Positions 1 through 13,520 are shown, numbered from the stretch's first letter. The stretch: 58,030 nucleotides of DNA from a virus (IMGVR_UViG_3300031857_000212:1-58030), one strand, 5' to 3'. Made by a program: numbers and translations. The notes: generated by a model not told the origin, from the letters alone.

Positions 1-2
1 CT

Positions 3-152
3 ATGGCTTCCACCATCTCTCATGCTGAGAACTCTATTACAGAAGTCTTACAGGATATAGAAGCATTCGGTTCTGTTGCTCAAAGGGAACTTGCACTGGA
101 TGCTCTGGATTGTTTGGAAAAGTTGTACATGTCTCTTAGGGATGAAGAATGA
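3..152 (+). CDS. hypothetical protein, possibly 5'-truncated by the window edge
   Basis: Open frame MASTISHAENS...SLRDEE* read from sequence; stop overlaps next ATG (ATGA). Confidence 0.5.
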   Translation: MASTISHAENSITEVLQDIEAFGSVAQRELALDALDCLEKLYMSLRDEE

Positions 153-256
153 TAGAAGCTATTTTCATTATTGTAGTCTTTGTTGTTATTGGTGTAAAGA
201 TACTAACAACAACATCAACACGATTTCGCCGATGGTTATACAAGGATAGTGTATGA
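149..256 (+). CDS. small membrane protein (35 aa, not in ORF track)
   Basis: MIEAIFIIVVFVVIGVKILTTTSTRFRRWLYKDSV*; one hydrophobic helix; ATGA overlaps at both ends. Confidence 0.55.
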   Translation: MIEAIFIIVVFVVIGVKILTTTSTRFRRWLYKDSV

Positions 257-489
257 ATGAACGAATTAAAGAACTTGCTGAACAAGCAGGATTTAATATG
301 CATAATGATCTTATTGATGGACATAACTTTAATTACGAAATTGAAAAGTTAGCCAATATCATTATACAGGAATGCATTGGTGTTGTAGAAAACCTTTCCC
401 CTGGATATAAAGACTATAGAGATCAGATTGAGGATGCGTTTCGCCGAGATTGTATAGAAGAAATTAAACATAAATTTGGGATAGAATGA
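253..489 (+). CDS. hypothetical phage protein (MNERIK family, paralog 1)
   Basis: ORF track; similar to next ORF (MNERIK...IIQEC...FGIE). Confidence 0.7.
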   Translation: MNERIKELAEQAGFNMHNDLIDGHNFNYEIEKLANIIIQECIGVVENLSPGYKDYRDQIEDAFRRDCIEEIKHKFGIE

Positions 490-701
490 ACGAACGTATT
501 AAACAATTTGCCGAACTATCCAAGTCATATAAAACAATGATAGTGGATGGTCAGATGCAATCTGTTTTACAAATAGATCCAGAAAGGTTTGCTGGTATGA
601 TTATACAGGAATGTGTTGATTTGATTGACACACTGAACGAAGCATATGATGCACCCAGTACTGCTGGAAAGTTTATTAAAGATCACTTTGGAATAGAATA
701 A
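486..701 (+). CDS. hypothetical phage protein (MNERIK family, paralog 2)
   Basis: ORF track; tandem paralog, ATGA overlap. Confidence 0.7.
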   Translation: MNERIKQFAELSKSYKTMIVDGQMQSVLQIDPERFAGMIIQECVDLIDTLNEAYDAPSTAGKFIKDHFGIE

Positions 702-1333
702 TGTTAGAAACAATATGTGATATTATGGTTGACGCTTACAAGCGTAATTGGATTACCTCTAGAGATGGTAATGTTAGTATTCGACATCATGATCGAGACC
801 ACTTTTACATCACTCCCTCTGGAGTACGTAAGCAAACATTACAACCTGATCAGTTTAAAAAGATTGGTCTTGGCAGTTCGTTATTAAGTCAGTACTGTAT
901 AGAATTGGATTACTCCGATATCAGTAGTAAACTAAAACCTTCTGGTGAATTACCCTTGCACTATGGATTACAAAAGAATATGGGTCAACACAGCGAAGAT
1001 GTTCGAGTTGTGGTGCATGTGCATCCTACCTATTGTATTGCAGCTATGCATGCTGGTATTGATCTCAGTAAGATTAGTGATTCGTTTCCAGAGTTGAATC
1101 GATATACAAAGGTAGCACCCAATGTGGGAGATGTTCCACCCATTAGTCAAGAATTAGCAGATCGTTGCCATGAAAACTTACAGCTAGATGACTACGGTAA
1201 TATCTCTTATGATATTGTTGGTATCAAAGGACATGGTGTAGTTGCCATAGATACTAGTCCATGGCGTGCATATGAGCACATAGAAAGATTAGAACACATT
1301 TGTAAAATCGTATTAGCATCGGGGAAATACTAA
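701..1333 (+). CDS. class II aldolase/adducin family protein (FucA/MtnB/AraD-like)
   Basis: GNVSIR, YITPSG, PSGELPLH, VHVHP metal-binding HxH, GHGVV motifs. Confidence 0.85.
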   Translation: MLETICDIMVDAYKRNWITSRDGNVSIRHHDRDHFYITPSGVRKQTLQPDQFKKIGLGSSLLSQYCIELDYSDISSKLKPSGELPLHYGLQKNMGQHSEDVRVVVHVHPTYCIAAMHAGIDLSKISDSFPELNRYTKVAPNVGDVPPISQELADRCHENLQLDDYGNISYDIVGIKGHGVVAIDTSPWRAYEHIERLEHICKIVLASGKY

Positions 1334-1527
1334 TGAAAGTATCCAGCATTGTCACTCATAATCTAGAGTTGGATCGTATGCAAAGAGTTCAGCTACAGGA
1401 TAAACGAGAAGAAGATTATCGCAAGGTAGTTGATAAACGAAACTTTGATAGAATTATTGCAGAGCGAGTCTCACGTAATATACGACTTGGTTTGGATAAA
1501 GGTCGTAATATAGATGTTGAATGTTAA
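1333..1527 (+). CDS. hypothetical protein
   Basis: ORF track, coupled to upstream stop. Confidence 0.6.
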   Translation: MKVSSIVTHNLELDRMQRVQLQDKREEDYRKVVDKRNFDRIIAERVSRNIRLGLDKGRNIDVEC

Positions 1528-1539
1528 TTTGGAGTTATT

Positions 1540-1785
1540 ATGAAACAATTAGGAATTGATTTTGAAACAGCGGATACGATCACACGATTGAATCTCACAG
1601 ATGCACGAGATTACATGAAGAATGAACTAAAACAATACTTTGATACAATGGAAACTGAGAATCCTTATTGGTTACATCCAGACGATGTGGTGAATAATCA
1701 AGTATTGATTATGCACATCGATGAAATCTTGAACTACTATGGTGGAGAATTATATGGCGAATGTAAAACAGGGCAACCTGACTAA
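1540..1785 (+). CDS. hypothetical protein
   Basis: ORF track; GGAG RBS upstream. Confidence 0.65.
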   Translation: MKQLGIDFETADTITRLNLTDARDYMKNELKQYFDTMETENPYWLHPDDVVNNQVLIMHIDEILNYYGGELYGECKTGQPD

Positions 1786-1888
1786 ATCACCTCAATGGTG
1801 GAAACATTTAAAGGACTGGAAACGTGTTTTTTGGAAAACGGAACGTAAGGCTCAAAAAGCCGATACCCAAGCTAGGCTACAAGACTAG
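1754..1888 (+). CDS. small basic Trp-rich protein (44 aa, not in ORF track)
   Basis: GGAG at 1744-1747; MANVKQGNLTKSPQWWKHLKDWKRVFWKTERKAQKADTQARLQD*. Confidence 0.6.
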   Translation: MANVKQGNLTKSPQWWKHLKDWKRVFWKTERKAQKADTQARLQD

Positions 1889-1899
1889 ACTAAAAACAT

Positions 1900-1928
1900 T
1901 TGCTTTGCAAAAGAAGCTAGAGTATAAT
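1900..1928 (+). promoter_or_regulatory. sigma70-type promoter, TTGCAA class
   Basis: TTGCTT-TGCAA, 17-nt spacer, TATAAT; one of five similar copies. Confidence 0.7.
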
Positions 1929-2044
1929 AGTTCTTATCGGTCATACTACTTGGAAGCTGCAACTAAGCAGATCGGTGTGGCACTAACTATGATATGGAAT
2001 GGAGTGATTCTCAATAAAGGGCATCACTCGCATTGGAAAAAGAA

Positions 2045-2191
2045 ATGAGTGATGAAGAAGTATTAAAACTCTACCAAGAGTTAGAAGATCACTATGGTGA
2101 TAATCTTCCTAACTTTGAACATTATCCAAAACAATTTACATATTGTGTGAAGTTATATCGATATTATAAGGAACAAAATGCAGGGAATTAA
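2045..2191 (+). CDS. small hypothetical phage protein (48 aa, not in ORF track)
   Basis: MSDEEVLKLYQELEDHYGDNLPNFEHYPKQFTYCVKLYRYYKEQNAGN*; fills the gap and overlaps next start. Confidence 0.65.
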   Translation: MSDEEVLKLYQELEDHYGDNLPNFEHYPKQFTYCVKLYRYYKEQNAGN

Positions 2192-2750
2192 ACTTTTTCA
2201 CTCGTGCTTATTTACAGATAAGCTAGAAATCCCAGCTGGCTTGGATACTCATATTTTATCTGTAATGGAGAATGATAACTCTGATGTTGCTATATCAAAT
2301 AGAGGTGGGTGGCAAAGTCCAGCATTCACAGACCCTAATATTACATTTGCAGAAAACATATTTGACGAAATTAAAATCAGAGTAACATCTGCGTTTAGAG
2401 AATATGGCATTAATAAAAGCCCAGTTCTTTCTAACTATTGGTTTAATGTAAATCCAAAATATAGTTGGAACATGGTCCATGAACATCCATTTTCTCTTAT
2501 ATCTGCAGTTTTATACGTTCGTGCACCCAATAACTGTGGTAATCTTATATTCTCTCGTCAAGACCTGTTACCTCATTACATTATTCCAAATGAAATAAAT
2601 GATAATAACTGGCCAAGTTATTGGGTTAAACCAATTCAAGGAACTCTGCTGCTATTTCCTTCTTATATGTCACACCATGTTGAACAAAATTTATCAGAAG
2701 ACGAAGATCCAACAAGAATCTCTATTGCGCTTAATTACATTGGAGCATAA
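2178..2750 (+). CDS. putative 2OG-Fe(II) oxygenase (TIGR02466-like)
   Basis: SNRGGWQS, WFNVN, HEH, LLLFPSYMSHHV, RISIALN motifs. Confidence 0.85.
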   Translation: MQGIKLFHSCLFTDKLEIPAGLDTHILSVMENDNSDVAISNRGGWQSPAFTDPNITFAENIFDEIKIRVTSAFREYGINKSPVLSNYWFNVNPKYSWNMVHEHPFSLISAVLYVRAPNNCGNLIFSRQDLLPHYIIPNEINDNNWPSYWVKPIQGTLLLFPSYMSHHVEQNLSEDEDPTRISIALNYIGA

Positions 2751-2752
2751 TT

Positions 2753-3331
2753 ATGATTGAGATGTGGTTTCCAACTCTAATTGATATTAGTCATTTAGAT
2801 CAATTTAAACCGAATAATGATTCTTATGCGCAGTGTGTGTATAATGTAAGAGACAATTCACCAAAAAGAAATGTCCAGTGGAAGTGTGATACCTTTAGCA
2901 CTTTGAATCTATACGATATGAAATCTGATCCTTTATTTGCAGATTTGATTTCTGCATGTGCGTCACAGGTAAAAATATTCGCCAGAGAATATGGTGTTGA
3001 TTCAGATCCAGTTTGTATTGACTCTTGGTTAAATTTAGCACCACCAAAAGAGTATCAAGAATATCATATGCACGCTAAGTCGCACTTTAGTGTTGTTTAC
3101 TATGTTAAAACTCCTAAGGATTGTGGCAACCTTTCTTTTAGAAGTTCAGAAGCTAATACAGATATGTTTCCTCTTCCTGCTTCTGTTTCTGTTCCAGCAA
3201 ACTATAAAACGTGCACCTACACCCCACAAGAATCTATGCTTGTGATTTTTAGATCTAATCTACTTCACATGGTTGAGAAAAACAAAAGTGATGAAGATAG
3301 AATTAGCATTTCAATAAATTTTAATGTTTGA
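2753..3331 (+). CDS. putative 2OG-Fe(II) oxygenase (TIGR02466-like)
   Basis: WLN, HMH, FSVVYYV, IFRSNLLHMV, RISISINF. Confidence 0.85.
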   Translation: MIEMWFPTLIDISHLDQFKPNNDSYAQCVYNVRDNSPKRNVQWKCDTFSTLNLYDMKSDPLFADLISACASQVKIFAREYGVDSDPVCIDSWLNLAPPKEYQEYHMHAKSHFSVVYYVKTPKDCGNLSFRSSEANTDMFPLPASVSVPANYKTCTYTPQESMLVIFRSNLLHMVEKNKSDEDRISISINFNV

Positions 3332-3338
3332 TAATAAA

Positions 3339-4265
3339 ATGAAGATAGCAATTTGCAGTGATTTGCACTTGGAGTTTGGTGGATTGTCCATAAAGAATCC
3401 AGGTGACGTAGAAGTCCTGATTCTTTCAGGCGACATTCTGGTTGAAAATGATCTTGACATCTATGATCGTCGTCAAGACGAAATGGGTTTCATGCGTGGA
3501 AAGTCTCGAGTGTATCACGACTTCTTTCATGAAGTATGCGCAGAATTCCCACATGTAATTTACGTTGCAGGTAATCATGAATCGTATCATGGTGACATTG
3601 CCAACACTTACAGTGAACTGAAGCGTAAGTTGGGTCATAATAAAAATCTACACATCCTAGATCGAGAAACATTCGAGTTGGGTGATCATGTATTCATTGG
3701 TTCTACTTTGTGGACTGATATGAACCGCAATGATCCAATGACACTTGAGTACATCCGTCACTCTATGAATGACTTTAAAATCATTGCAAACTCTGCTCGT
3801 AAAGTTTACCGTAAAGTTCCTTTGTATAAGAAGGATGCTGATGGTAACTACGAAAAAAATGAACAAGGATATAATATCGATATTGGCATGAAATTGAAAG
3901 AAGAAGATTCTACCTTCTCTCCACAGGATGCCGTTGATGCACACATTAAGTGTTTGGCGTATATCGATCATATGTACTCTGAGACTTCACCATGGAAGAC
4001 TGTTATTGTAGTTGGTCATCATACACCTTCTACCAAATCATGTCATCCACGTTATGCTCACGACTCATTGATGAATGGTGGATATCATAGCGATCTTTCT
4101 GAGTTTATTCTTGATCGTCCAGGAATCAAATTGTGGACTCATGGACATACTCATGAAGACTTTGATTATATGATTGGTGAGTGTCGTGTTGTTTGTAACC
4201 CTCGTGGTTATATTAAATACGAACCACGTGCCGATAATTTTACATTAAAGGTTGTTGAAGTATGA
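3339..4265 (+). CDS. calcineurin-like metallophosphoesterase
   Basis: SDLHLE, LSGDI, AGNHE, GHHTP, HGHTH, CNPRGY; start moved to MKIAICSD. Confidence 0.9.
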   Translation: MKIAICSDLHLEFGGLSIKNPGDVEVLILSGDILVENDLDIYDRRQDEMGFMRGKSRVYHDFFHEVCAEFPHVIYVAGNHESYHGDIANTYSELKRKLGHNKNLHILDRETFELGDHVFIGSTLWTDMNRNDPMTLEYIRHSMNDFKIIANSARKVYRKVPLYKKDADGNYEKNEQGYNIDIGMKLKEEDSTFSPQDAVDAHIKCLAYIDHMYSETSPWKTVIVVGHHTPSTKSCHPRYAHDSLMNGGYHSDLSEFILDRPGIKLWTHGHTHEDFDYMIGECRVVCNPRGYIKYEPRADNFTLKVVEV

Positions 4266-4447
4266 GTGCGTTAAAAACTATTTCGGAGTATTATTCTGAA
4301 GACTCAAATAAACGTGCAGTCGTTATGAAAGATCTGACATTGGGTAATTACCGAGTTGTTGTCACCAATGACTCTGGTAGTTCTTTTTCAACCAGCTTTG
4401 ATACTTTAGAACATGCAGAAACTTACGCAGAGGATTGGGTATTATGA
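4262..4447 (+). CDS. hypothetical protein
   Basis: ORF track; ATGA overlap. Confidence 0.65.
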   Translation: MSALKTISEYYSEDSNKRAVVMKDLTLGNYRVVVTNDSGSSFSTSFDTLEHAETYAEDWVL

Positions 4448-4647
4448 CAACATGGACTATTACACTTGAAGAAGCAGATGATGGTAGTGGTGATTTAGTT
4501 ATGCCATTACCTCAAGATTTACTAGATGGTGCTGGATGGAAAGAAGGCGACGTTCTTACATGGACTGATAATAAAGATGGTACATGGAGTCTTTCAAAAC
4601 AACAAGAACATAGTAAGTACTATTATGATACGGACAGAAACAGATGA
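4444..4647 (+). CDS. AbrB/MazE-like small protein
   Basis: DGSGDLVMPLPQDLLDGAGWKEGDVLTW resembles swapped-hairpin AbrB pattern; start at ATG 4444. Confidence 0.65.
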   Translation: MTTWTITLEEADDGSGDLVMPLPQDLLDGAGWKEGDVLTWTDNKDGTWSLSKQQEHSKYYYDTDRNR

Positions 4648-4784
4648 CTGAACCAGTAGAAACAAACGTGTGTGAATATGCAGAAACTGCACTTGAGCAT
4701 TATATGAAAAAGTGCTTTAACCTTGAGGAAGAAAACAAGGAATTAAAAGCACAAATTAAAAAACTATTAAGGATGATAGAATAA
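4644..4784 (+). CDS. small coiled-coil protein (46 aa, not in ORF track)
   Basis: MTEPVETNVC...LEEENKELKAQIKKLLRMIE*; overlaps both neighbours. Confidence 0.55.
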   Translation: MTEPVETNVCEYAETALEHYMKKCFNLEEENKELKAQIKKLLRMIE

Positions 4785-5155
4785 TGAGTAAAACTTTTAC
4801 AGATGTTTCAGTATTTTTAGCAGCTTGCGGACAGAACCATGCATCAACTCCTGTTCCACGAAATACACTGTCAGCGTTATACAAGAAATTGATTGATGAA
4901 GAATATCAAGAGTTTCTAGATGCCTATGAAGATTTAGATGATGCTGAACAACTTGATGCATGCTTTGATATGATGTGGGTTATTATTGGTTATATGAAAT
5001 CTCGTGGTTGGGATTGTGAAGGTGCATGGGATGAAGGTGCTAAAAGCAATCTCTCTAAAATTGACCATATTACTGGTAAGGTTATTCGTCGTGAAGATGG
5101 AAAGATCCTTAAACCAGAGGGTTGGAAGCCACCAGATTTCTCAAAATTCGTTTGA
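4784..5155 (+). CDS. MazG-like / PRA-PH-like NTP pyrophosphohydrolase
   Basis: LIDEEYQEF, LDACFD, SNLSK, REDGKILKPEGWKPPD. Confidence 0.85.
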   Translation: MSKTFTDVSVFLAACGQNHASTPVPRNTLSALYKKLIDEEYQEFLDAYEDLDDAEQLDACFDMMWVIIGYMKSRGWDCEGAWDEGAKSNLSKIDHITGKVIRREDGKILKPEGWKPPDFSKFV

Positions 5156-5180
5156 CTTGCAACTTTATTTGAGGTATAAT
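5152..5180 (+). promoter_or_regulatory. sigma70-type promoter, TTGCAA class (leaderless)
   Basis: TTGACT-TGCAA, 17-nt spacer, TATAAT; ATG 6 nt downstream. Confidence 0.8.
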
Positions 5181-5186
5181 TATACT

Positions 5187-5687
5187 ATGAATACTGATAT
5201 TACACTCTACCTCGACATGGATGGTGTACTCGCTGATTTTAACAAAGAGTACACCAAATACGATCCACAAAAAGAAGACCGAAAGAAATTTCGTGACTCT
5301 GTATTAACGCATAAGATTTTTGAGAAACTAGATTTTATGCCTGATACGCAAGTGCTTCTCAATCACGTATCTCTATTAAATGGGGTACGTATTGAGATTC
5401 TTACATCCATGGGAACTCATGAGCCATTTCAAGCCAATGAAGCAAAGTCCCAAAAACAAAGATGGCTTGACAAACATAACATTCCATACAAAGCTAATTT
5501 TGTTCATAGCAAACAAGAGAAAGCTAAGTATGCGACACCTACATCAATATTGATTGATGACTCTGTTGGTTGTATTGATCCATTCAATAAAGCAGGTGGA
5601 TGGGGACTACTACATGAGTATTCCGTGAATACTATTCACACTCTTGACCACACAATTCTAAAAATACGTGCAATGACTCATGCTTGA
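5187..5687 (+). CDS. HAD-family 5'(3')-deoxyribonucleotidase-like protein
   Basis: LDMDGVLADF, ILTS, ILIDD motifs; start reassigned to 5187. Confidence 0.85.
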   Translation: MNTDITLYLDMDGVLADFNKEYTKYDPQKEDRKKFRDSVLTHKIFEKLDFMPDTQVLLNHVSLLNGVRIEILTSMGTHEPFQANEAKSQKQRWLDKHNIPYKANFVHSKQEKAKYATPTSILIDDSVGCIDPFNKAGGWGLLHEYSVNTIHTLDHTILKIRAMTHA

Positions 5688-5964
5688 TATATTTCAACCC
5701 ACTTTACAATGGATTAAAGATGATTTTAAGTCTAACAGAATTCGCTTTGCTGTTGAGCTTCTTGCTTGGGCTATTAGCATTGGGTGCTCGATTACTATGG
5801 CACTCACAGTCCCCAACCCTCCTCTACTGGCTCTTTATCCCGTTTGGATCCTTGGCTGTGCTTTGTATGCTTGGGCTAGTTGGACTAGGAAATCTTTTGG
5901 CATGCTCGCTAACTACATTCTGTTAACAACTATTGATACAATTGGTTTAATTAGAATGCTATGA
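5680..5964 (+). CDS. small multi-pass membrane protein
   Basis: Three hydrophobic segments. Confidence 0.7.
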   Translation: MLDIFQPTLQWIKDDFKSNRIRFAVELLAWAISIGCSITMALTVPNPPLLALYPVWILGCALYAWASWTRKSFGMLANYILLTTIDTIGLIRML

Positions 5965-6428
5965 GATTAGTTGAACTTACCTTACCAGAAAATTTCGTCA
6001 ATAATGTTTTATCATTACGTGGTGTGGCTGAATGTGTTAAACGAAGTAATAAAGGTGGATGGCAAAGTGATCGTTGTAATCAAAAAACATATCCATGGGC
6101 AGCAGAAATTATAGATCAAGTTCAAGCTGCAGCTGGTGTTGCTGGAGATATAACTTACTGGTATAATATCAATACTGGCAGTGATTATAATGAGTGGCAT
6201 GATCATGATAAAGGTGCTACTGATGAAATGTGTGGAGTCCTTTATCTTCAAGTTCCAGAAAATGCTGGTAGCTTTGAGTATGAAATTAAAAAAGAAATCT
6301 TTCAAGTTAAACCCCATGCAGGGTTGTTACTATTATTTCCTGATGATTTAATGCATCGTGTTTTACCGAACGATGGTGATGGTGAGAGAGTCTCAATGGC
6401 TTTTAATTTTTGGAAAATGTTAAAGTGA
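5961..6428 (+). CDS. putative 2OG-Fe(II) oxygenase
   Basis: SNKGGWQS, WYNIN, HDH, LLLFPDDLMHRV, RVSMAFN. Confidence 0.85.
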   Translation: MRLVELTLPENFVNNVLSLRGVAECVKRSNKGGWQSDRCNQKTYPWAAEIIDQVQAAAGVAGDITYWYNINTGSDYNEWHDHDKGATDEMCGVLYLQVPENAGSFEYEIKKEIFQVKPHAGLLLLFPDDLMHRVLPNDGDGERVSMAFNFWKMLK

Positions 6429-7036
6429 ATATATTTTATCTCCACGAAGATACTAAGGAATGTGCAAAACAACATCTCGACAAACATGTCGTTAAGATGA
6501 TTTTGGAATACGCACAACTTCTTTCTACTGCTCATCGTCTTCTTGATGGTTATGAGTATGAGGGTAAGTCCATTTCTGGTCGTAAAGCCATGAGATGGAA
6601 ATTAGATGATTCTCGTGAAGATAATTTGTATATGGCATCACATATGAAACATCCATCTGGAATTTGGTGTCGACAGTCAATAGATAATTACTGGTGGCTG
6701 TATAATCTATGGCGAGATCTTATGGTAGAATATACATTCCGTTATGGAAAACATCATGTTGCAGAAAGATTGATTCCATTTTTGTCTCATGCTCCAACTA
6801 ATATATCAGACAATATTGCAACACCAATGCCACAGTGTATGCCAGAGCAATATAAAGTAGTTGGTGATTCTATCCAAGCATACCATAACTATTACATTAA
6901 TGATAAACAGCCATTTGCTGTTTGGACAAATAGACCAATCCCAAGCTGGTTCGTATCTGCTTGGCGTGGTAAAAGCCACAAGGCTATTGCTTTAGTAGCT
7001 GAAAATAAAGTAAAATTCAAAATGATTCCAGCATAG
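6425..7036 (+). CDS. pyrimidine-dimer DNA glycosylase family (endonuclease V-like)
   Basis: NIFYL, DKHVVKMILEYAQLLSTAH, HP..IW, EYTFRYGKHH, QCMP; GTG start at 6425. Confidence 0.8.
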   Translation: MNIFYLHEDTKECAKQHLDKHVVKMILEYAQLLSTAHRLLDGYEYEGKSISGRKAMRWKLDDSREDNLYMASHMKHPSGIWCRQSIDNYWWLYNLWRDLMVEYTFRYGKHHVAERLIPFLSHAPTNISDNIATPMPQCMPEQYKVVGDSIQAYHNYYINDKQPFAVWTNRPIPSWFVSAWRGKSHKAIALVAENKVKFKMIPA

Positions 7037-7044
7037 TTATTTTG

Positions 7045-7051
7045 CTAAATA
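7045..7051 (+). promoter_or_regulatory. candidate T4-type late promoter (CTAAATA)
   Basis: Variant of TATAAATA just upstream of a GAGGAG RBS. Confidence 0.5.
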
Positions 7052-7066
7052 CAAAGAGGAGATATT

Positions 7067-7309
7067 ATGCCATCGTATGATTTTAGAAACAAAGACACTG
7101 GTGAAGTGTTCGGAAGAATTATGAAAATTGCTGAGAAAGAGCAATATCTTATTGACAATCCCAATATCGAACAAGCATTGCTTAGCGCACCTGCATTCAC
7201 TGGCGACCATATTGTCCTTAAAAAGGATACAGGATTTAAGGAGGTGCTGCAGAAGATTCACGAAAAGACTCCAGGAAGTAATTTAAATAATTTCTCATCA
7301 CAAATATAA
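7067..7309 (+). CDS. FmdB-like small regulatory protein (Cys-less variant)
   Basis: MPSYDF...TGEVF start and GFKEVLQKI tail; directly upstream of phoH. Confidence 0.65.
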   Translation: MPSYDFRNKDTGEVFGRIMKIAEKEQYLIDNPNIEQALLSAPAFTGDHIVLKKDTGFKEVLQKIHEKTPGSNLNNFSSQI

Positions 7310-7318
7310 GGGTAACTA

Positions 7319-8089
7319 ATGGCTCGAGCAACAGCAAAGAAAATAGCACCTGATAATGTACAATGTGAGCCATCTGCTAGATCAGCAACCAAAACAATAA
7401 ACAATCACTTAAAATTAAGACTTGATGACTTAAAAACATTTCAACCATTAACAGATAATCAAAAGATTTTCTTTGATGCATACAAACGTGGTGATTATTT
7501 CGTAGCATTACATGGAGTTGCGGGAACAGGAAAAACCTTCTGTGCTTTATACAAAGCAATTGAAGAAGTAATGGATAAAGGAAATCCATTTGACAAAATT
7601 ATTGTAGTACGTTCTGCCGTACAATCACGTGAGATGGGGCATCTTCCAGGAGACGTTAATGAGAAGATGGAAATTTACCAACAACCATATCGTCAAATAT
7701 GCGACACCTTATTTGGTCGCAAAGATGCATGGGATCGTTTAGAAGAACAAGGACATATCCAGTTTATTTCTACATCGTTTATTCGTGGTATGTCATTCGA
7801 TGATGCAATCATTATCGTTGACGAAATGCAGAACTTAACATTTGAAGAGATCGACACAGTTATGACTCGTGTTGGTTATCGTTCTAAGATCATTTGGTGT
7901 GGCGATTATCGTCAGACAGATCTAAATAAGAAGAAGAACGATATGTCTGGAATTCTGAAATTTTTTGATATTGCCCATCACATGGGTGCTTTTACTCGAG
8001 TTGAATTTACTCCCGACGATATCGTACGCAGTTCTCTTGTTAAGGATTATATCCTAGCAAAACTAAAATACGAAGACATAGGAGATTAA
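7319..8089 (+). CDS. phoH: PhoH-like ATPase
   Basis: Walker A GVAGTGKT, GHLPG, FIRGMSF, IIVDEMQN, GDYRQTD, DIVRS. Confidence 0.95.
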   Translation: MARATAKKIAPDNVQCEPSARSATKTINNHLKLRLDDLKTFQPLTDNQKIFFDAYKRGDYFVALHGVAGTGKTFCALYKAIEEVMDKGNPFDKIIVVRSAVQSREMGHLPGDVNEKMEIYQQPYRQICDTLFGRKDAWDRLEEQGHIQFISTSFIRGMSFDDAIIIVDEMQNLTFEEIDTVMTRVGYRSKIIWCGDYRQTDLNKKKNDMSGILKFFDIAHHMGAFTRVEFTPDDIVRSSLVKDYILAKLKYEDIGD

Positions 8090-8710
8090 ATGATTACCTC
8101 AAGCCAATTTGCACATCTATTCCCAAGGGCACAAGACCCACAGGGTTGGGTCGATGCAATGAATAATGTATTCCCAACATATAACATTGATACACCACAA
8201 CGCATTGCAGCATTCCTTGCTCAGTGCGGACATGAGTCTGGTGGTTGGACGACATTTGAAGAAAACCTTAATTACTCTGCACAGGGATTAAATGGTATCT
8301 TTAAAAAGTATTTCCCTACACTTGAGTCAGCACAACCTTATGCACGCAAGCCAGAAATGATTGCCAATAAAGTTTATGGTGGTCGTATGGGTAATGGACC
8401 AGAGTCTTCAGGTGATGGATGGAAATATCGTGGACGTGGTCCGATTCAATTAACTGGTAAAGCAAACTATATGGCGTTTGCCAAAGAAATGTTTGATGAC
8501 TGGCAAAACATATTTGAAAATCCAGATTGGGTTACTGCAGATCGTGACTTTGCTTTAATGTCAGCTATCTGGTTTTGGAATAAAAACGGATTAAACAAAG
8601 AAGCGGACTCTGGTGATATTAAAACCATGACACGTAAGATTAATGGTGGCTTCATTGGGTTGGAGGATCGCATCAAACATTACAATGAAGCGATTCACCT
8701 TCTAACTTAA
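8090..8710 (+). CDS. glycoside hydrolase family 19 endolysin
   Basis: FLAQCGHES, EENLNYS, YRGRGPIQLTGKANY, SAIWFW, INGG..GLEDR. Confidence 0.92.
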   Translation: MITSSQFAHLFPRAQDPQGWVDAMNNVFPTYNIDTPQRIAAFLAQCGHESGGWTTFEENLNYSAQGLNGIFKKYFPTLESAQPYARKPEMIANKVYGGRMGNGPESSGDGWKYRGRGPIQLTGKANYMAFAKEMFDDWQNIFENPDWVTADRDFALMSAIWFWNKNGLNKEADSGDIKTMTRKINGGFIGLEDRIKHYNEAIHLLT

Positions 8711-9438
8711 TGTTAGAACTTTTATATGTTCTAGTTGTGACGCATATTACTATTTTATGCGTCACACTTTTTCTACATAGAGCCCAAGCGCACAGAGGTG
8801 TTACATTTCATCCAGCTGTGAGTCATTTTATGAGGTTCTGGTTATGGATGACCACTGGTATGGTAACGAAACAATGGGTAGCCATACACCGCAAACATCA
8901 CAGGTATAGTGATCAAGAAGGTGATCCTCACACACCTCATGTGTACGGTATTTGGCGTGTATTGTTTAAAGGTGCATTTTTATACCATGATGCTAGTAAA
9001 GATAAAGATATGGTTAATTCATATGGAGTTGGAACTCCTGATGACTGGATAGAAAATAATGTCTACACCAAACACAGTAAACTTGGTGTTAGCTTAATGA
9101 TGATTATTAATATTCTACTATTTGGATGGGTAGGATTGTTAATTTGGGGTATACAGATGATATGGATTCCATTCTGGGCAGCAGGAGTTGTGAATGGAAT
9201 AGGACATTGGGTAGGTTACCGTAATGGAACTACTAAAGATCAAAGTCGAAACATTAGTCCTTGGGGGATTATTATTGGTGGTGAAGAACTGCACAACAAC
9301 CATCACTTAAATCCTGCTAGCCCCAAATTAAGTAGAAGATGGTTTGAATTTGATATTGGTTGGATGTGGTTAACAATCCTAGACAAATTTAAATTGGCAA
9401 AAATTAAAAATGAAATACAAAACGATATTCATAAGTGA
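8710..9438 (+). CDS. desA: membrane fatty-acid (delta-9) desaturase, DesA-like
   Basis: Three His boxes HRAQAH, HRKHH, HNNHH; hydrophobic segments. Confidence 0.9.
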   Translation: MLELLYVLVVTHITILCVTLFLHRAQAHRGVTFHPAVSHFMRFWLWMTTGMVTKQWVAIHRKHHRYSDQEGDPHTPHVYGIWRVLFKGAFLYHDASKDKDMVNSYGVGTPDDWIENNVYTKHSKLGVSLMMIINILLFGWVGLLIWGIQMIWIPFWAAGVVNGIGHWVGYRNGTTKDQSRNISPWGIIIGGEELHNNHHLNPASPKLSRRWFEFDIGWMWLTILDKFKLAKIKNEIQNDIHK

Positions 9439-10192
9439 TGTACATTTAGGAACTCGTGATTGTCAAGCTGATAAATTAAATAATTTTTTGAAAAATAATA
9501 CCTGCGAGACTTTATATCTCGTGGGTGATATAATAGATGCATGGCGTATACAACAAAACAAATGGCGATGGAGACAAAGCCACACTAACGTAGTACGTCG
9601 TATATTGGGTCATGCTAAACGTGGCACAAGAGTGATTTACGTAGCAGGCAATCATGACGAATTCTTAAGACCAATGATACCATATGGTTTTAGTTTTGGT
9701 ACAATAGAAATACGCAATCAAGCAGAACATATAGGGGTAGATGGTAATCACTATCTTGTAGTTCATGGAGATCTATTTGATGGAATTACTAGACTCGCAC
9801 CATGGATAGCATTCTTAGGAGACAAAGCATATGACTTCGTTCTTAGTATCAATTCCAAATATAATTGGATACGTCATCGTATGGGTTTTGGGTACTTTAG
9901 CCTTAGCAAGTTCCTTAAGCATAAAGTTAAAAAAGCAGTAGACTTTGTATTCAAGTTTGAAGAAAACTTGGCGGGATATTGCAAGAAGCGTGGGTTTGAT
10001 GGAGTTATTTGTGGGCATATACACCATGCCGAGATTAAAGAGATTGATGGTGTCATGTATATGAATGATGGTGATTGGGTTGAATCTTGTACTGCATTAG
10101 TTGAGCATCATGATGGTCGATGGGAAATAGTAACATGGACTAAGGAGAAAGATGATGTGGTTGTTAATACTAGTAGCAGTGCACATGAATAA
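9410..10192 (+). CDS. LpxH2/PlcP-like metallophosphoesterase (candidate phospholipase C)
   Basis: FISDVHLG, LVGDIID, GNHDE, HGDLFD, CGHIH, NDGDWVESCTALVEH. Confidence 0.8.
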   Translation: MKYKTIFISDVHLGTRDCQADKLNNFLKNNTCETLYLVGDIIDAWRIQQNKWRWRQSHTNVVRRILGHAKRGTRVIYVAGNHDEFLRPMIPYGFSFGTIEIRNQAEHIGVDGNHYLVVHGDLFDGITRLAPWIAFLGDKAYDFVLSINSKYNWIRHRMGFGYFSLSKFLKHKVKKAVDFVFKFEENLAGYCKKRGFDGVICGHIHHAEIKEIDGVMYMNDGDWVESCTALVEHHDGRWEIVTWTKEKDDVVVNTSSSAHE

Positions 10193-10328
10193 TCCACAGG
10201 ATCAGCCAGGAAAAATTGAATTAGAATTCAAAGATCGGATGAGTTGCGAATTCGCTTTGGCATCAATGAAGTTTGAATTGAAGTTTAAGAATTTTAAGGT
10301 AGAAGGTAAATGTCAAAAAATACTTTAG
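10152..10328 (+). CDS. small exported/membrane-anchored protein (58 aa, not in ORF track)
   Basis: AGGAG RBS at 10143-10147; MMWLLILVAVH...two Cys...KCQKIL*. Confidence 0.65.
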   Translation: MMWLLILVAVHMNNPQDQPGKIELEFKDRMSCEFALASMKFELKFKNFKVEGKCQKIL

Positions 10329-11029
10329 AGGATAAAATCACAATAGTTGTTCCATGTAAGAACGAAGAAAACTATATTGCGCATTTATTAATGCATTTAC
10401 GTCAACAATCGATAGGCAATACTAAAATTATCATTGCTGATTGCTCAACTGACAAAACACGAGAAGTTATTCAAATAATGAAGGGTGAATTGAATGTTGA
10501 GGTTATTGATGGTGGACCAGTTTCTATTGCAAAGAACAATGGCGCAAAATTAGTAACAACTCCATACATACTGTTTATTGATAGCGATGTAAGATTTTTC
10601 TCTAACACAGTTATACTTGACACAGTAAATGAATTAGAGTATAATAACTTAGATCTCATTGGATTGTATGCGAAGTGTTATGATGGTAATTTAACTGCAC
10701 AAATTGGATTTATGTTATTCAATGCAGTTAACAACATATTGAAATATAAAGTTCCATTTGCTGTTGGTGCTTACATGTTAACACGAAGAAACAAGTTTGA
10801 AGAATTTGGTGGATTTCCTGCCAAGTTTGGAACTAGTGAAGACTTCTTTCTCTCTAAGATGTATGATGTTAAAAAGTTCAAATTGGTGAATCATTATTTT
10901 GGGCAGGACAGTAGAAGATTTAAGAAGATGGGATATTTTGGCATGGCTACATATCTTATCAAAAATTTTTGGAATAGAAATAATGAAGAATATTGGAACA
11001 AAATGGATTATTCGAAATATTGGAACTAA
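10310..11029 (+). CDS. glycosyltransferase family 2
   Basis: IVVPCKNEE, ADCSTDKT, AKNNGA, LFIDSD (DxD), SEDFFL, SRRF. Confidence 0.9.
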   Translation: MSKNTLEDKITIVVPCKNEENYIAHLLMHLRQQSIGNTKIIIADCSTDKTREVIQIMKGELNVEVIDGGPVSIAKNNGAKLVTTPYILFIDSDVRFFSNTVILDTVNELEYNNLDLIGLYAKCYDGNLTAQIGFMLFNAVNNILKYKVPFAVGAYMLTRRNKFEEFGGFPAKFGTSEDFFLSKMYDVKKFKLVNHYFGQDSRRFKKMGYFGMATYLIKNFWNRNNEEYWNKMDYSKYWN

Positions 11030-11683
11030 ATGAAGACATTTATACATCATGATTTACCCAAACTCGAACGTGCCACATCCTCCGATGGAACAAGAGTCTA
11101 CAAGACTCCATCGGGTTCAGCCTATCCAAGCGTCACTACCGTTACAGGATTACACACAGCAAAGGGAATCGCAGAGTGGAGAAAGCGAGTCGGAAACGAA
11201 GAAGCAAACCGAATCTCTGGAAAAGCATCAGCAAGAGGCACAAGGATTCACGGATACTGTGAAGACTACCTACGAGGAAACTTATTCGAAGCCGACATGT
11301 TCGACCTCGAAATGTTCAACTCCATTAAACCCTTACTTGACAAAGTCGACAAAATTCACTGCTTGGAAGATCCACTCTATTCTGACCACTTACAAGTCGC
11401 TGGAACAGTTGATTGTATCGCAGAGTTCCAAGGTAAACTTAGTGTCATAGATTTTAAGACATCAAGTAAACCAAAAGATCGTGATGATATTCATAACTAT
11501 TTTATGCAAACTGCAGCATACGCTGTTGCCTTTGAAGAGAGAACAGGCATTCCTGTTGGTAGACTTGTAATTATTATGGCTGTTGATAATGATGATCCTC
11601 GTTGGTTTATCGAGAAACGTGATAACTGGATTGGTGGGTTTCGCAAACTAAGACTTGACTATAAGAATAAATATAACATCTAA
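11030..11683 (+). CDS. PD-(D/E)XK exonuclease of T4-like phages
   Basis: YPSVTTV, RGTRIH, AGTVDC, IDFKTS, YFMQ..AY. Confidence 0.88.
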   Translation: MKTFIHHDLPKLERATSSDGTRVYKTPSGSAYPSVTTVTGLHTAKGIAEWRKRVGNEEANRISGKASARGTRIHGYCEDYLRGNLFEADMFDLEMFNSIKPLLDKVDKIHCLEDPLYSDHLQVAGTVDCIAEFQGKLSVIDFKTSSKPKDRDDIHNYFMQTAAYAVAFEERTGIPVGRLVIIMAVDNDDPRWFIEKRDNWIGGFRKLRLDYKNKYNI

Positions 11684-11684
11684 T

Positions 11685-11713
11685 TTGCCTTGCAAGAAAT
11701 TGTGGGGTATAAT
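11685..11713 (+). promoter_or_regulatory. tmRNA promoter, TTGCAA class
   Basis: TTGCCT-TGCAA, 17-nt spacer, TATAAT. Confidence 0.8.
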
Positions 11714-11719
11714 TAGTGT

Positions 11720-11976
11720 ATTGTTGTAATTCCTTCAAAGCAAAGGACTTCTGGACGTGGGTTCGACTCCCACCATCTCCACCATAAGAGTTGTTTAGAA
11801 TTTTTATGATGGGGATGCCATGGTTTCGACAGGGGTAGATAGTGGCGACGGCAACACAGTAGGCGATGACTGTAAATCAAGCAAAAAAGTAAATGCAAAC
11901 GACTCTGTCTACGCATTGGCAGCCTAAACGCTGACTAGGGTTTCGATTGGTTTCCTCGTAACAGAATAACCAATCA
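11720..11976 (+). ncRNA. ssrA: circularly permuted (two-piece) tmRNA; tag ANDSVYALAA
   Basis: T-arm GTGGG-TTCGACT-CCCAC (11757-11773) and CATCTCC-A-CCA (11774-11784) precede the 5' strand GGGGATG (11811-11817), giving a 7-bp acceptor stem with G3:U; tag frame 11895-11927; outer ends approximate. Confidence 0.93.
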
Positions 11977-11999
11977 TTAATTTTTTAAATGAGGACATT

Positions 12000-12896: not shown

Positions 12897-13520
12897 ATGC
12901 GAACTAAAAAGATACTGGCAATTGTCAGCTTATTGATTTTATCAATAATCGCAACTACATTATATGCATCAAATAACATTTTTACACTGGATGATAAAAT
13001 TCTTGATGTTGCGTATTCAGAATTAACAAAAGATACTAAGAAACAAATTGATTGCTTGGCAGACAACATCTACCATGAGGCAAGAAGTGAACCAGAGAAA
13101 GGCAAAGTTGCCGTTGCTCTAGTGACCTTAAATAGAGTTGAAGACCCAAGATTTCCAAAAGACATCTGTGGGGTAGTCAAACAAAAGACACAAGGTATGT
13201 GTCAATTTTCTTGGTTCTGTACTGCAGTCAAAAGTAATAAAGGAAGTGAATCGTATCAGTCAGCGAAAGAAGTTGCTGTATACGTTTATGCCAACTACGA
13301 GAAACTACACGATATAACTAAAGGTGCTTTGTATTATCACGCTGATTATGTAAATCCAGGATGGAAGTTACAGAAAACAGTTACTATCGGTCGACATATT
13401 TTTTATAAAGAAGGTGGCAAAAACTATGATGGAAAAACTAAACCTCCAGCTGAAAGACGATTCAGCTTCGAGACATTCTTTCTTTCTGATGATGGAGGAG
13501 ATAAGTTTATCAACTTGTAA
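12897..13520 (+). CDS. cell wall hydrolase, SleB/Hydrolase_2 family
   Basis: CLADNIYHEAR, VA.VTLNRV, ICGVV.Q, CQFSW, GALYYHADYV.P.W, IGRHIFY; N-terminal signal anchor. Confidence 0.9.
   Translation: MRTKKILAIVSLLILSIIATTLYASNNIFTLDDKILDVAYSELTKDTKKQIDCLADNIYHEARSEPEKGKVAVALVTLNRVEDPRFPKDICGVVKQKTQGMCQFSWFCTAVKSNKGSESYQSAKEVAVYVYANYEKLHDITKGALYYHADYVNPGWKLQKTVTIGRHIFYKEGGKNYDGKTKPPAERRFSFETFFLSDDGGDKFINL

What the first reader, a model, noticed from the sequence alone, without database searches (positions are those of the whole stretch)
7045..11029. Candidate phage phospholipid-to-glycolipid remodelling cassette (desaturase, PlcP-like phosphoesterase, small exported protein, GT2) behind phoH and the endolysin
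Seen: overlapping or abutting genes phoH, GH19, desaturase, metallophosphoesterase, 58-aa ORF, GT2. The phosphoesterase has GNHD rather than the GNRD of true LpxH, plus GDWVESCTA. Known: this pattern fits PlcP/LpxH2, the phospholipase C that P-starved bacteria use to release diacylglycerol, which a neighbouring glycosyltransferase (usually GT4 Agt) converts to P-free glycolipid. Inference: the phage mines membrane phosphate for DNA synthesis while keeping the membrane intact and fluid, using a GT2 instead. Alternatively, given the late-type promoter and adjacent endolysin, it conditions the membrane for lysis. I am not aware of this complete cassette being characterised in a phage.
Basis: partly seen in the sequence, partly recalled or inferred. 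Interest (0 to 1): 0.85.

Follow-up and report, generated by a model that had tools for sequence, protein, structure and literature searches.

The report
Phage PlcP phospholipase plus glycosyltransferase cassette
A T4-like freshwater phage carries a bacterial-type enzyme that cuts the phosphate head off membrane lipids, coupled to a small unknown protein and a sugar-adding enzyme, so it probably turns host phospholipids into phosphorus-free sugar lipids during infection.

Summary
The genes are there as described. The phosphoesterase is not LpxH. It scores 36-46 bits against LpxH models whose cut-offs are 134 and 190 and is 21% identical to a true LpxH. It is 56% identical, over its full length, to a bacterial protein that sits in a plcP-agt-type operon.

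The conserved unit is phosphoesterase-(58-aa protein)-glycosyltransferase. All 78 assessable sister viral loci, out of 80 examined, have a glycosyltransferase in that slot: 69 have this GT2 and 9 have an Agt-like GT4. GT4-phosphoesterase fusion proteins also exist.

The desaturase is an optional neighbour (12 of 80 loci). phoH and the endolysin are incidental neighbours (2 of 80).

The 58-aa protein is real, but I found no support for export. No Pho box is present.

I could not fetch a characterised PlcP to compare directly, and nothing here shows activity.

I found no paper on phage PlcP; viral catalogues list the gene family as lpxH. This scan has noted the same cassette in other phage windows.

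Verdict: a new viral variant of the bacterial PlcP-Agt lipid-renovation pathway. Its purpose, phosphate mining or membrane conditioning, is inferred.

The parts
9410..10192 (+). PlcP-type (LpxH-paralogue) metallophosphoesterase, 260 aa; predicted phospholipase C releasing diacylglycerol
   Evidence: Pfam Metallophos 47.6 bits. It scores 45.6 and 36.2 bits against LpxH models whose cut-offs are 134 and 190.35. It is 56% identical to the MPE of a bacterial MPE-GT4 operon and 21% identical to a true LpxH. The metal-binding residues D10, H12, D40, N81, H119, H203 and H205 are invariant.
10152..10328 (+). 58-aa conserved small protein (orf58), function unknown, translationally coupled to the MPE gene
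   Evidence: AAGGAG lies 4 nt before the ATG, inside the MPE 3' end. Homologues occur in 48 of 80 sister loci at 48-80% identity, with 15 invariant columns including two Cys. The model has pLDDT 96.5 and a beta-beta-alpha-beta fold. Structural matches are only to uncharacterised small phage proteins.
10310..11029 (+). GT2 (GT-A fold) glycosyltransferase, 239 aa; predicted to glycosylate diacylglycerol
   Evidence: PF00535 65.2 bits and PF13506 (GT21) 37.0 bits. D91-x-D93 and E177-D178 are invariant in 20 sequences. The model has a GT-A fold, pLDDT 75.7. It follows the MPE or orf58 in 69 of 80 sister loci, and the other 9 assessable loci have an Agt-like GT4 in the same slot.
8710..9438 (+). 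DesA-family membrane fatty-acid desaturase, short form (242 aa); optional neighbour of the module
   Evidence: NCBIfam NF049918 408.8 bits (cut-off 400), covering profile positions 11-242 of 385. The histidine boxes HRAQAH, HRKHH and HNNHH can be read in the translation. The best bacterial relatives are 55-64% identical and mostly Burkholderiales. It is present at over 60% identity in 12 of 80 sister loci.
7319..8089 (+). phoH; upstream neighbour, not part of the conserved module
   Evidence: PF02562 151.8 bits. It lies next to the module only in L039 and L063 of 80 loci.
8090..8710 (+). GH19 endolysin; upstream neighbour, not part of the conserved module
   Evidence: PF00182 45.3 bits and phrog_181 endolysin 264.8 bits. 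It shares this context only in L039 and L063.
7045..7051 (+). CTAAATA, a possible T4-like-cyanophage-type late promoter core ahead of the co-directional gene run 7067-11683
   Evidence: It sits 16 nt before the ORF at 7067. The motif is not enriched in the window, so this is a weak call.

Best explanation
The core is a three-gene phage module: MPE, orf58 and GT2. The MPE is a viral member of the PlcP branch of LpxH-like metallophosphoesterases. Characterised bacterial PlcP enzymes are Mn-dependent phospholipases C that cut the phospho-head group off PE, PG or PC and leave diacylglycerol. The GT2 that follows then most likely transfers a sugar from a UDP-sugar onto that diacylglycerol and makes a phosphorus-free glycolipid. 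An infected cell would thus give up lipid phosphorus without losing its bilayer. The desaturase, where present, would retailor acyl chains. The small protein orf58 travels with the MPE and is an accessory of unknown role. Shown here: family placement of the MPE, intact catalytic motifs, conserved gene linkage, replacement of GT2 by Agt-like GT4 in the same slot, and GT4-MPE fusions. Inferred: the substrates of both enzymes, the sugar, the timing, and the benefit to the phage (phosphate supply for DNA synthesis is the favoured reading).
For: 1. The MPE is not LpxH. It scores 45.6 and 36.2 bits against LpxH equivalog models with cut-offs 134 and 190.35. Three bacterial genomes each hold a true LpxH (335.7, 239 and 199.2 bits) plus a separate paralogue that is 54-57% identical to the window protein. 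The window protein is 21% identical to one of those true LpxH proteins.

2. In Beta proteobacterium L13 the 56%-identical paralogue (E 2e-102) overlaps a downstream GT4, with EptA-like and patatin-like genes flanking it. This is the published plcP-agt layout (papers PMC4796936, PMC13691135, passages read).

3. Of 80 sister viral loci, 69 have this GT2 right behind the MPE or orf58, 9 have an Agt-like GT4 there (one with a RimK-like gene between), and 2 are cut by the contig end. The phage GT4 is 41% identical over its full length to the bacterial operon GT4.

4. Of 12 long family representatives scanned, all 4 that exceed 560 aa are GT4-MPE fusions. One fusion's GT4 is 36% identical to the operon GT4.

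5. In the isolated Pelagibacter phage Mosig the 49%-identical gene lies next to a pstS-type phosphate-transporter gene.

6. One sister contig has a UDP-glucose dehydrogenase fragment right after the GT2.

7. The GT2 keeps its DxD and ED motifs. It passes the Pfam cut-off for GT21, a family of lipid glycosyltransferases (PMC8231724 names GT4, GT21 and GT28 as glycoglycerolipid synthases).

8. The module is widespread: at least 581 IMG/VR stretches encode relatives and 8000 of 8000 scored proteins matched. Identical DNA is present in contigs of runs from two studies.
Against: No activity is shown for any of the proteins. I could not fetch any experimentally characterised PlcP (SMc00171, MED193_17359, PB7211_983, PA3219, BCAL2364), so membership rests on a proxy: a homologue in a plcP-agt-type operon.

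The GT2 is unrelated to Agt. It had no match in the five bacterial genomes with the closest MPE. In the species-genome collection its only close relative lies on a phage-like contig. Its fold matches are generic GT-A enzymes that do not reveal the acceptor.

No Pho-box-like site (CTGTCATN4CTGTCAT, up to 3 mismatches) lies near the cassette in the window or in three sister loci. Control by phosphate starvation is therefore not indicated here.

Synechococcus phage S-SRM01 carries the MPE with no glycosyltransferase beside it.

The 80 loci are the best 80 of at least 581, and several are near-duplicates, so the counts are not independent events.

The RNA evidence is only short contigs from one metatranscriptome library, and DNA carry-over is not excluded.
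Confidence: 0.6

Rival explanations
1. The chemistry is the same, but the purpose is different. The module changes inner-membrane lipid composition to condition the cell, for example for lysis timing, membrane stability late in infection, exclusion of superinfecting phages, or blunting of a lipid-dependent host defence. It does not serve to supply phosphate.
For: No Pho box is found near the cassette. In this window the module lies in a gene run behind an endolysin gene and a possible late-type motif. A desaturase, which changes membrane properties rather than phosphorus budget, accompanies the module in 12 of 80 loci. Bacterial glycolipids are reported to alter antibiotic and predator interactions (PMC8528852 passages; PMC9457565 abstract).
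Against: Adjacency to the endolysin is seen in only 2 of 80 sister loci. In phage Mosig the homologue sits next to a phosphate-transporter gene. The runs that hold the stretch are labelled mostly freshwater or lake metagenomes. That phosphorus often limits growth in lakes is my own knowledge.
Confidence: 0.2
2. The two enzymes are not coupled through diacylglycerol. The GT2 glycosylates another acceptor (polyprenyl phosphate for O-antigen or surface modification, a protein, or DNA), and the phosphoesterase has a separate substrate.
For: Fold matches of the GT2 are to wall-teichoic-acid, hyaluronan and polyprenyl-phosphate mannosyl transferases. There are weak PHROG hits to GtrB-like O-antigen conversion proteins (E 4e-6). 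Pelagimyophage glycosyltransferases have been read as O-chain modifiers (PMC7029224, passages).
Against: A glycosyltransferase fills the slot behind the MPE in 78 of 78 assessable loci, and in 9 of them it is the Agt-type GT4, the known diacylglycerol enzyme family. GT4-MPE fusions exist. As far as I recall, GtrB-type enzymes have C-terminal membrane helices, and the model shows none here: it ends in helices at 202-237 of a 239-aa protein.
Confidence: 0.12
3. The gene is what databases call it: LpxH, a lipid A pathway enzyme. On this reading the phage boosts or alters lipopolysaccharide synthesis.
For: Sources label the close relatives 'UDP-2,3-diacylglucosamine pyrophosphatase LpxH'. Viral gene catalogues list lpxH under lipopolysaccharide biosynthesis (PMC9611531 table; PMC10653327 passage).
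Against: It scores far below both LpxH model cut-offs. It has GNHD instead of GNRD. It is 21% identical to a true LpxH. Bacteria that carry the close homologue also have a separate true LpxH.
Confidence: 0.04

Closest known systems
Bacterial PlcP-Agt lipid-renovation operon (Phaeobacter sp. MED193 MED193_17359; SAR11 HTCC7211 PB7211_983 with agt; P. aeruginosa PA3219-PA3218; B. cenocepacia BCAL2364-2366; S. meliloti PlcP), as described in PMC4796936, PMC8528852, PMC13691135 and PMC8231724 (passages read)
   Same: An LpxH-like metallophosphoesterase is followed directly by a glycosyltransferase. The window MPE is 56% identical to a bacterial MPE in such an operon, more than the 46-47% that PMC8528852 reports between accepted PlcP proteins. 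Sister phages carry the Agt-like GT4 itself.
   Different: Here the partner is a small GT-A GT2 with no close cellular relative. From CAZy knowledge it should invert rather than retain the anomeric configuration. A conserved 58-aa protein is wedged between the two genes. No Pho box is present. The genes sit in a lytic T4-like phage.
LpxH (UDP-2,3-diacylglucosamine hydrolase), PDB 8qk2, 6ph9, 5b49
   Same: Same metallophosphoesterase superfamily and overall layout, with weak sequence matches (E 8e-5 to 3e-3).
   Different: Below the family cut-offs, GNHD not GNRD, 21% identity. It is a separate paralogue in genomes that also have LpxH.
Cyanophage Delta9 lipid desaturases (vFAD), PMC5776448
   Same: A phage-borne membrane acyl-lipid desaturase with three histidine boxes, in T4-like phages.
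   Different: The window gene belongs to the proteobacterial DesA family, not the cyanobacterial DesC type. It is about 150 aa shorter than bacterial DesA. It had no match in 50,697 GenBank phage records. Here it is linked to a PlcP-type module.
Pelagibacter phage Mosig gene Mosig_00120, annotated 'putative UDP-2,3-diacylglucosamine hydrolase'
   Same: 49% identical homologue in an isolated T4-like phage, followed by an overlapping small ORF and next to a phosphate-transporter gene.
   Different: No glycosyltransferase is annotated beside it. Its small ORF is not homologous to orf58 (15% identity). The genome announcement does not mention the gene (PMC7892664, term search).
GT21 processive diacylglycerol glycosyltransferase Pgt (Mesorhizobium loti, A. 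tumefaciens; cited in PMC4796936 and PMC8231724) and, from my memory, the cyanobacterial GT2 monoglucosyl-diacylglycerol synthase
   Same: These show that GT-A type enzymes can glycosylate diacylglycerol. PMC4796936 says some bacteria have plcP directly upstream of such a transferase. The window GT2 passes the Pfam GT21 cut-off (37.0 against 21.7 bits).
   Different: The match to the general GT2 model is stronger (65.2 bits). The window protein is only 239 aa. I made no direct comparison with Pgt.

Membership tests
PlcP (LpxH-paralogue phospholipase C) | Calcineurin-like metallophosphoesterase with intact metal-binding motifs (DxH, GD, GNH(D/E), H, GH, GHxH) | tested here: met
   D10, H12, G39, D40, G80, N81, H82, D83, H119, H203 and H205 are invariant in 24 and in 27 aligned sequences. 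Pfam Metallophos 47.6 bits.
PlcP (LpxH-paralogue phospholipase C) | A paralogue distinct from LpxH that coexists with a true LpxH in the same genomes | tested here: met
   Three of three bacterial genomes tested hold both a true LpxH (TIGR01854 199-336 bits, over the cut-off) and a homologue 54-57% identical to the window protein.
PlcP (LpxH-paralogue phospholipase C) | Close similarity to proteins encoded in plcP-agt operons | tested here: met
   56% identity over the full length (E 2e-102) to the MPE that overlaps a GT4 gene in Beta proteobacterium L13.
PlcP (LpxH-paralogue phospholipase C) | Groups with the experimentally characterised PlcP proteins in a phylogeny | not tested
   No characterised sequence could be fetched, and the script machine was lost, so no tree was built.
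PlcP (LpxH-paralogue phospholipase C) | Mn-dependent phospholipase C activity on PE, PG or PC giving diacylglycerol | not testable with these tools
   This needs a biochemical assay.
Bacterial PlcP-Agt Pho-regulon operon | A Pho box ahead of the operon | tested here: not met
   There are no matches to CTGTCATN4CTGTCAT with up to 3 mismatches near the cassette. The window has 2 matches, at positions 36 and 16904. L020 and L070 have none, and L047 has none near the module. Only this consensus was tried.
Bacterial PlcP-Agt Pho-regulon operon | The partner is an Agt-type GT4 (GT-B) glycosyltransferase | tested here: not met
   The window partner is a GT2 with a GT-A fold. No GT4 is found in the 58-kb record. 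Nine sister loci do have the GT4.
LpxH | Score over the curated equivalog cut-off, and the GNRD motif | tested here: not met
   45.6 bits against a cut-off of 134, and 36.2 against 190.35. The motif is GNHD.
Glycosyltransferase family 2 (GT-A) | Pfam domain over the cut-off, DxD motif, GT-A fold | tested here: met
   PF00535 65.2 bits against 23.3. D91-x-D93 is invariant. Foldseek matches to GT2 enzymes reach E 7e-11.
GT21 (lipid glycosyltransferases, Pgt type) | Pfam PF13506 over the cut-off as the best model | tested here: inconclusive
   37.0 bits against a cut-off of 21.7, but this covers only residues 82-192 and is weaker than the PF00535 match.
DesA-family fatty acid desaturase (NF049918) | Score over the equivalog cut-off, and three histidine boxes | tested here: met
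   408.8 bits against 400. HRAQAH, HRKHH and HNNHH can be read in the translation.
DesA-family fatty acid desaturase (NF049918) | Full-length architecture (about 385-397 aa) | tested here: not met
   The match covers profile positions 11-242 of 385. A Polynucleobacter homologue is 397 aa, while the phage forms are 237-249 aa.

The most novel reading that the evidence does not exclude
Phages have built their own version of lipid renovation that the host cannot make. A PlcP-type phospholipase works with a phage-only 58-aa partner protein, and a phage-only inverting GT2 produces a beta-linked glycosyl-diacylglycerol in place of the alpha-linked lipids made by Agt. A truncated DesA is sometimes added to retailor the acyl chains. 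The result would be a virus-specific membrane state that both frees lipid phosphorus and changes how the infected cell is seen by other phages or grazers, across a very abundant group of lake phages.
Probability: 0.25. Interest if true: 0.8.

Novelty: new variant of a known kind. Interest (0 to 1): 0.62.

Why it matters
If the module works as inferred, abundant lake phages re-plumb the membrane lipids of their hosts. The bacterial pathway is known only as a starvation response, so this would add membrane phospholipid to the phosphorus pools that viruses can tap. It would also mean that part of the non-phosphorus glycolipid signal in phosphorus-poor waters could be virus-driven. On the practical side, viral gene catalogues file this gene family under 'lpxH, lipopolysaccharide biosynthesis' (PMC9611531, PMC10653327). 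For this clade the label is wrong, which distorts functional summaries of viromes. The idea is directly testable by expressing two or three small genes in E. coli and reading the lipidome.

Tried and rejected
- **Complex prediction of MPE with orf58.** I handed the job in unchanged 19 times. The queue was full every time, so it never ran and nothing can be said about binding.
- **Phylogeny and a wider neighbour count by script.** The script machine was lost, so no tree was built. I read the counts for the 80 loci by hand.
- **Fetching a characterised PlcP.** The alignment-based scan and the scan with the Mosig protein returned neither HTCC7211, S. meliloti nor P. aeruginosa. The S. meliloti paper (PMC2806695) is not held.
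- **Pho box.** None lies near the module. Only the E. coli/Pseudomonas-type consensus was tried.
- **T4 late promoter TATAAATA.** None lies near the cassette.
- **Acceptor of the GT2 from fold or language-model look-alikes.** The answers were generic GT2 only.
- **Function of orf58.** It has no Pfam, NCBIfam or PHROG family. The Atlas gives only unnamed viral clusters. The best PDB Foldseek match has E 0.033. The best VIA match is Z 7.1 to PurS, which is within the chance range. BFVD matches are all uncharacterised. An earlier-notes look-up by its sequence found nothing.
- **Expression.** One metatranscriptome run holds short contigs on parts of the stretch, for example 266 nt with 4 differences on 10809-11072. 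DNA carry-over is not excluded, so I do not count this as evidence.
- **The Mosig small ORF as an orf58 homologue.** Rejected, 15% identity.
- **Recent capture from a sampled host.** Rejected for the genomes searched. The best bacterial identity is 60%, and 57% among 301 genomes of one order, of which 143 had a homologue.

Full report
**What is there**

The window is a 58,030-base viral record, estimated about 36% complete. PHROG matches identify a T4-like myovirus: baseplate hub, wedge, tail tube, gp32-type SSB and helicase loader.

Between 7067 and 11683 all genes run on the + strand and overlap or abut:
- a small regulator-like ORF, 7067-7309
- phoH, 7319-8089
- GH19 endolysin, 8090-8710
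- desaturase, 8710-9438
- metallophosphoesterase (MPE), 9410-10192
- a 58-aa ORF (orf58), 10152-10328
- GT2, 10310-11029
- a PD-(D/E)XK exonuclease, 11030-11683

Family scans confirm each label. GNHD is invariant in the family, and solved LpxH chains have GNRD at that place.

**What the phosphoesterase is**

It is not LpxH.
- It scores 45.6 and 36.2 bits against the two LpxH equivalog models, whose cut-offs are 134 and 190.35.
- Its matches to solved LpxH structures have E-values of only about 1e-4.
- It is 21% identical to the true LpxH of a Pseudomonas genome.
- Three of three bacterial genomes tested hold both a true LpxH over the cut-off and a separate paralogue 54-57% identical to the window protein.

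That paralogue family is large. A search of 1.84 billion cluster representatives gave 978 at E 1e-30 or better, the nearest at 54% identity. In species genomes the best 80 relatives are 49-60% identical and mostly Alpha-, Beta- and Gammaproteobacteria. In one order, 143 of 301 genomes searched had a homologue, the best at 57%.

In Beta proteobacterium L13 the homologue is 56% identical over its full length, E 2e-102. Its gene overlaps a downstream GT4 glycosyltransferase gene, and an EptA-like transferase and a patatin-like lipase flank the pair. This is the layout published for plcP-agt. PlcP is described there as a manganese-dependent metallophosphoesterase that makes diacylglycerol from PE or PG, and Agt glycosylates that diacylglycerol (PMC4796936, PMC8231724, PMC8528852, PMC13691135; passages read). 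PMC8528852 accepts PA3219 as PlcP at 46-47% identity to the founding members.

I could not fetch any of the characterised proteins themselves, and I could not build a tree because the script machine was lost. Placement in the PlcP branch therefore rests on this proxy, on paralogy with LpxH, and on gene context.

**The conserved unit**

A scan of IMG/VR found at least 581 stretches that encode relatives. The best 80 are 83-91% identical. I compared the window's proteins with these 80 loci, with these results:
- The GT2 follows the MPE directly in 69 loci.
- 2 loci end at the contig edge and cannot be assessed.
- 9 loci lack the GT2.

In all 9 of the loci without a GT2, an Agt-like GT4 of 335-344 aa fills the same slot. 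In L047 a RimK-like ATP-grasp gene lies between. That phage GT4 is 41% identical over its full length to the bacterial operon GT4. So 78 of 78 assessable loci have a glycosyltransferase behind the phosphoesterase, and two unrelated folds take turns in one position. This is the strongest argument that the GT2 does Agt's job.

Fusion proteins give a second argument. I scanned 12 long members out of the 150 listed family representatives. The 4 that exceed 560 aa are single chains with a GT4 domain followed by the MPE domain. One such GT4 is 36% identical to the operon GT4. The other 8 showed only the MPE domain.

The 80 loci include near-duplicates, so these counts are not independent events.

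**What is not part of the unit**

phoH and GH19 lie beside the module only in L039 and L063. The desaturase is found at over 60% identity in 12 of 80 loci, upstream in L070 and L072 and downstream elsewhere. The alternative reading tied to the endolysin has no support from synteny.

**The GT2**

It is a 239-aa GT-A enzyme with invariant DxD and ED motifs. The model is adequate (pLDDT 75.7), and its last 40 residues form basic, aromatic-rich helices. Fold matches are generic GT2 enzymes (TarP, TarS, hyaluronan synthase, a polyprenyl-phosphate mannosyltransferase) at TM about 0.6, which does not name the acceptor.

It has more than 5000 close relatives in metagenomes. It had no match in the five bacterial genomes that hold the closest MPE. 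In the species-genome collection its only close relative lies on a 21.8-kb contig that carries the same module followed by a UDP-glucose dehydrogenase fragment. That contig is most likely phage DNA binned into a MAG. It also passes the Pfam cut-off for GT21, a lipid glycosyltransferase family, though more weakly than for the general GT2 model. From general CAZy knowledge a GT2 inverts, so its product would be beta-linked, unlike the product of Agt.

**orf58**

It is a real gene.
- It has an AAGGAG box 4 nt before its start.
- Homologues occur in 48 of 80 loci: 37 of the 69 GT2 loci, all 9 GT4 loci, and both cut loci.
- 15 columns are invariant, including two cysteines.
- Gene callers often run the MPE frame through it instead, giving 293-aa 'LpxH' proteins with a non-conserved tail.

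Its model is very confident (pLDDT 96.5) and folds as strand-strand-helix-strand. The hydrophobic N-terminus forms a strand, not a signal peptide or membrane helix. No solved structure matches convincingly. The BFVD matches are other small uncharacterised phage proteins.

It travels with the phosphoesterase whichever glycosyltransferase follows, so I take it for an accessory of the phosphoesterase. A complex prediction to test this never got through the queue.

**The desaturase**

It passes the DesA-family equivalog cut-off (408.8 against 400 bits) but covers only profile positions 11-242 of 385. A Polynucleobacter homologue is 397 aa, while the phage forms are 237-249 aa. All three histidine boxes are present.

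Its best bacterial relatives are 55-64% identical and mostly Burkholderiales. None of 50,697 GenBank phage records matched it. Phage Delta9 desaturases are known from cyanophages (PMC5776448), but those are the DesC type.

**Regulation and ecology**

No Pho-box-like site lies near the module in the window or in three sister loci. Earlier notes of this scan report such sites in other phages; I could not reproduce that here.

A CTAAATA sits 16 nt before the first gene of the run, but the motif is not enriched in the window.

Runs from 13 studies hold part of the stretch, mostly labelled freshwater or lake. Identical contigs occur in runs of two studies.

In the isolated Pelagibacter phage Mosig the 49%-identical gene lies next to a phosphate-transporter gene. 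In Synechococcus phage S-SRM01 the homologue stands alone.

**Novelty**

Full-text searches for PlcP with phage or viral terms, and for pelagimyophage or diacylglucosamine, turned up no paper on a phage-borne PlcP. The pelagimyophage survey and the Mosig announcement do not mention it. A search for lpxH with viral auxiliary-gene terms found 8 papers. I read the lpxH passage in two of them, and both list it as a lipopolysaccharide gene.

This scan has already noted the same cassette in at least eight other phage windows. Their leads on the GT2/Agt swap and the RimK insert were checked here and hold.

I rate it a new viral variant of a known bacterial pathway. It is well supported by comparative evidence and untested biochemically.

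Noticed in passing
window 11671-11997 (+): There is a full-length betaproteobacterial-type (permuted, two-piece) tmRNA gene between the exonuclease and GroES-like genes. Rfam RF01850 scores 160.1 bits against a gathering score of 84, covering model positions 1-331. ARAGORN reads the tag peptide ANDSVYALAA. Together with the mostly Burkholderiales relatives of the desaturase, it hints at a betaproteobacterial host.
   Followed up: partly
window 10617-10645 (+): A perfect sigma-70 consensus, TTGACA-17 nt-TATAAT (12 of 12), lies inside the GT2 coding region and points toward the exonuclease and tmRNA genes. Promoter-like sites as a whole are not enriched in the region (28 found against 33.7 expected).
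   Followed up: no
L047 6895-7785 (+): In one sister phage a RimK-like ATP-grasp gene (PF08443, 163 bits) is inserted between orf58 and the Agt-like GT4.
   Followed up: no
L170 4398-5150 (+): On a 21.8-kb contig binned into a Crocinitomicaceae MAG, a UDP-glucose/GDP-mannose dehydrogenase fragment directly follows the MPE-small ORF-GT2 module. That enzyme would supply UDP-glucuronate, a known donor for glucuronosyl-diacylglycerol.
   Followed up: no
proteins P0160, P0168, P0232, P0249: Single-chain fusions of an Agt-like GT4 (N-terminal) with a PlcP-type phosphoesterase (C-terminal), 564-663 aa, occur among the family's cluster representatives. Their source organisms are unknown.
   Followed up: partly
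window 1-7036 (+): Upstream of the cassette lies a run of typical T4-like auxiliary genes: class II aldolase, three 2OG-Fe(II) oxygenases, a second metallophosphoesterase (3324-4265), a MazG-like pyrophosphohydrolase and an NT5C-type deoxyribonucleotidase.
   Followed up: no
window 12897-13520 (+): A second cell-wall hydrolase (SleB-type, PF07486, 85.7 bits) lies about 4 kb downstream of the GH19 endolysin.
   Followed up: no
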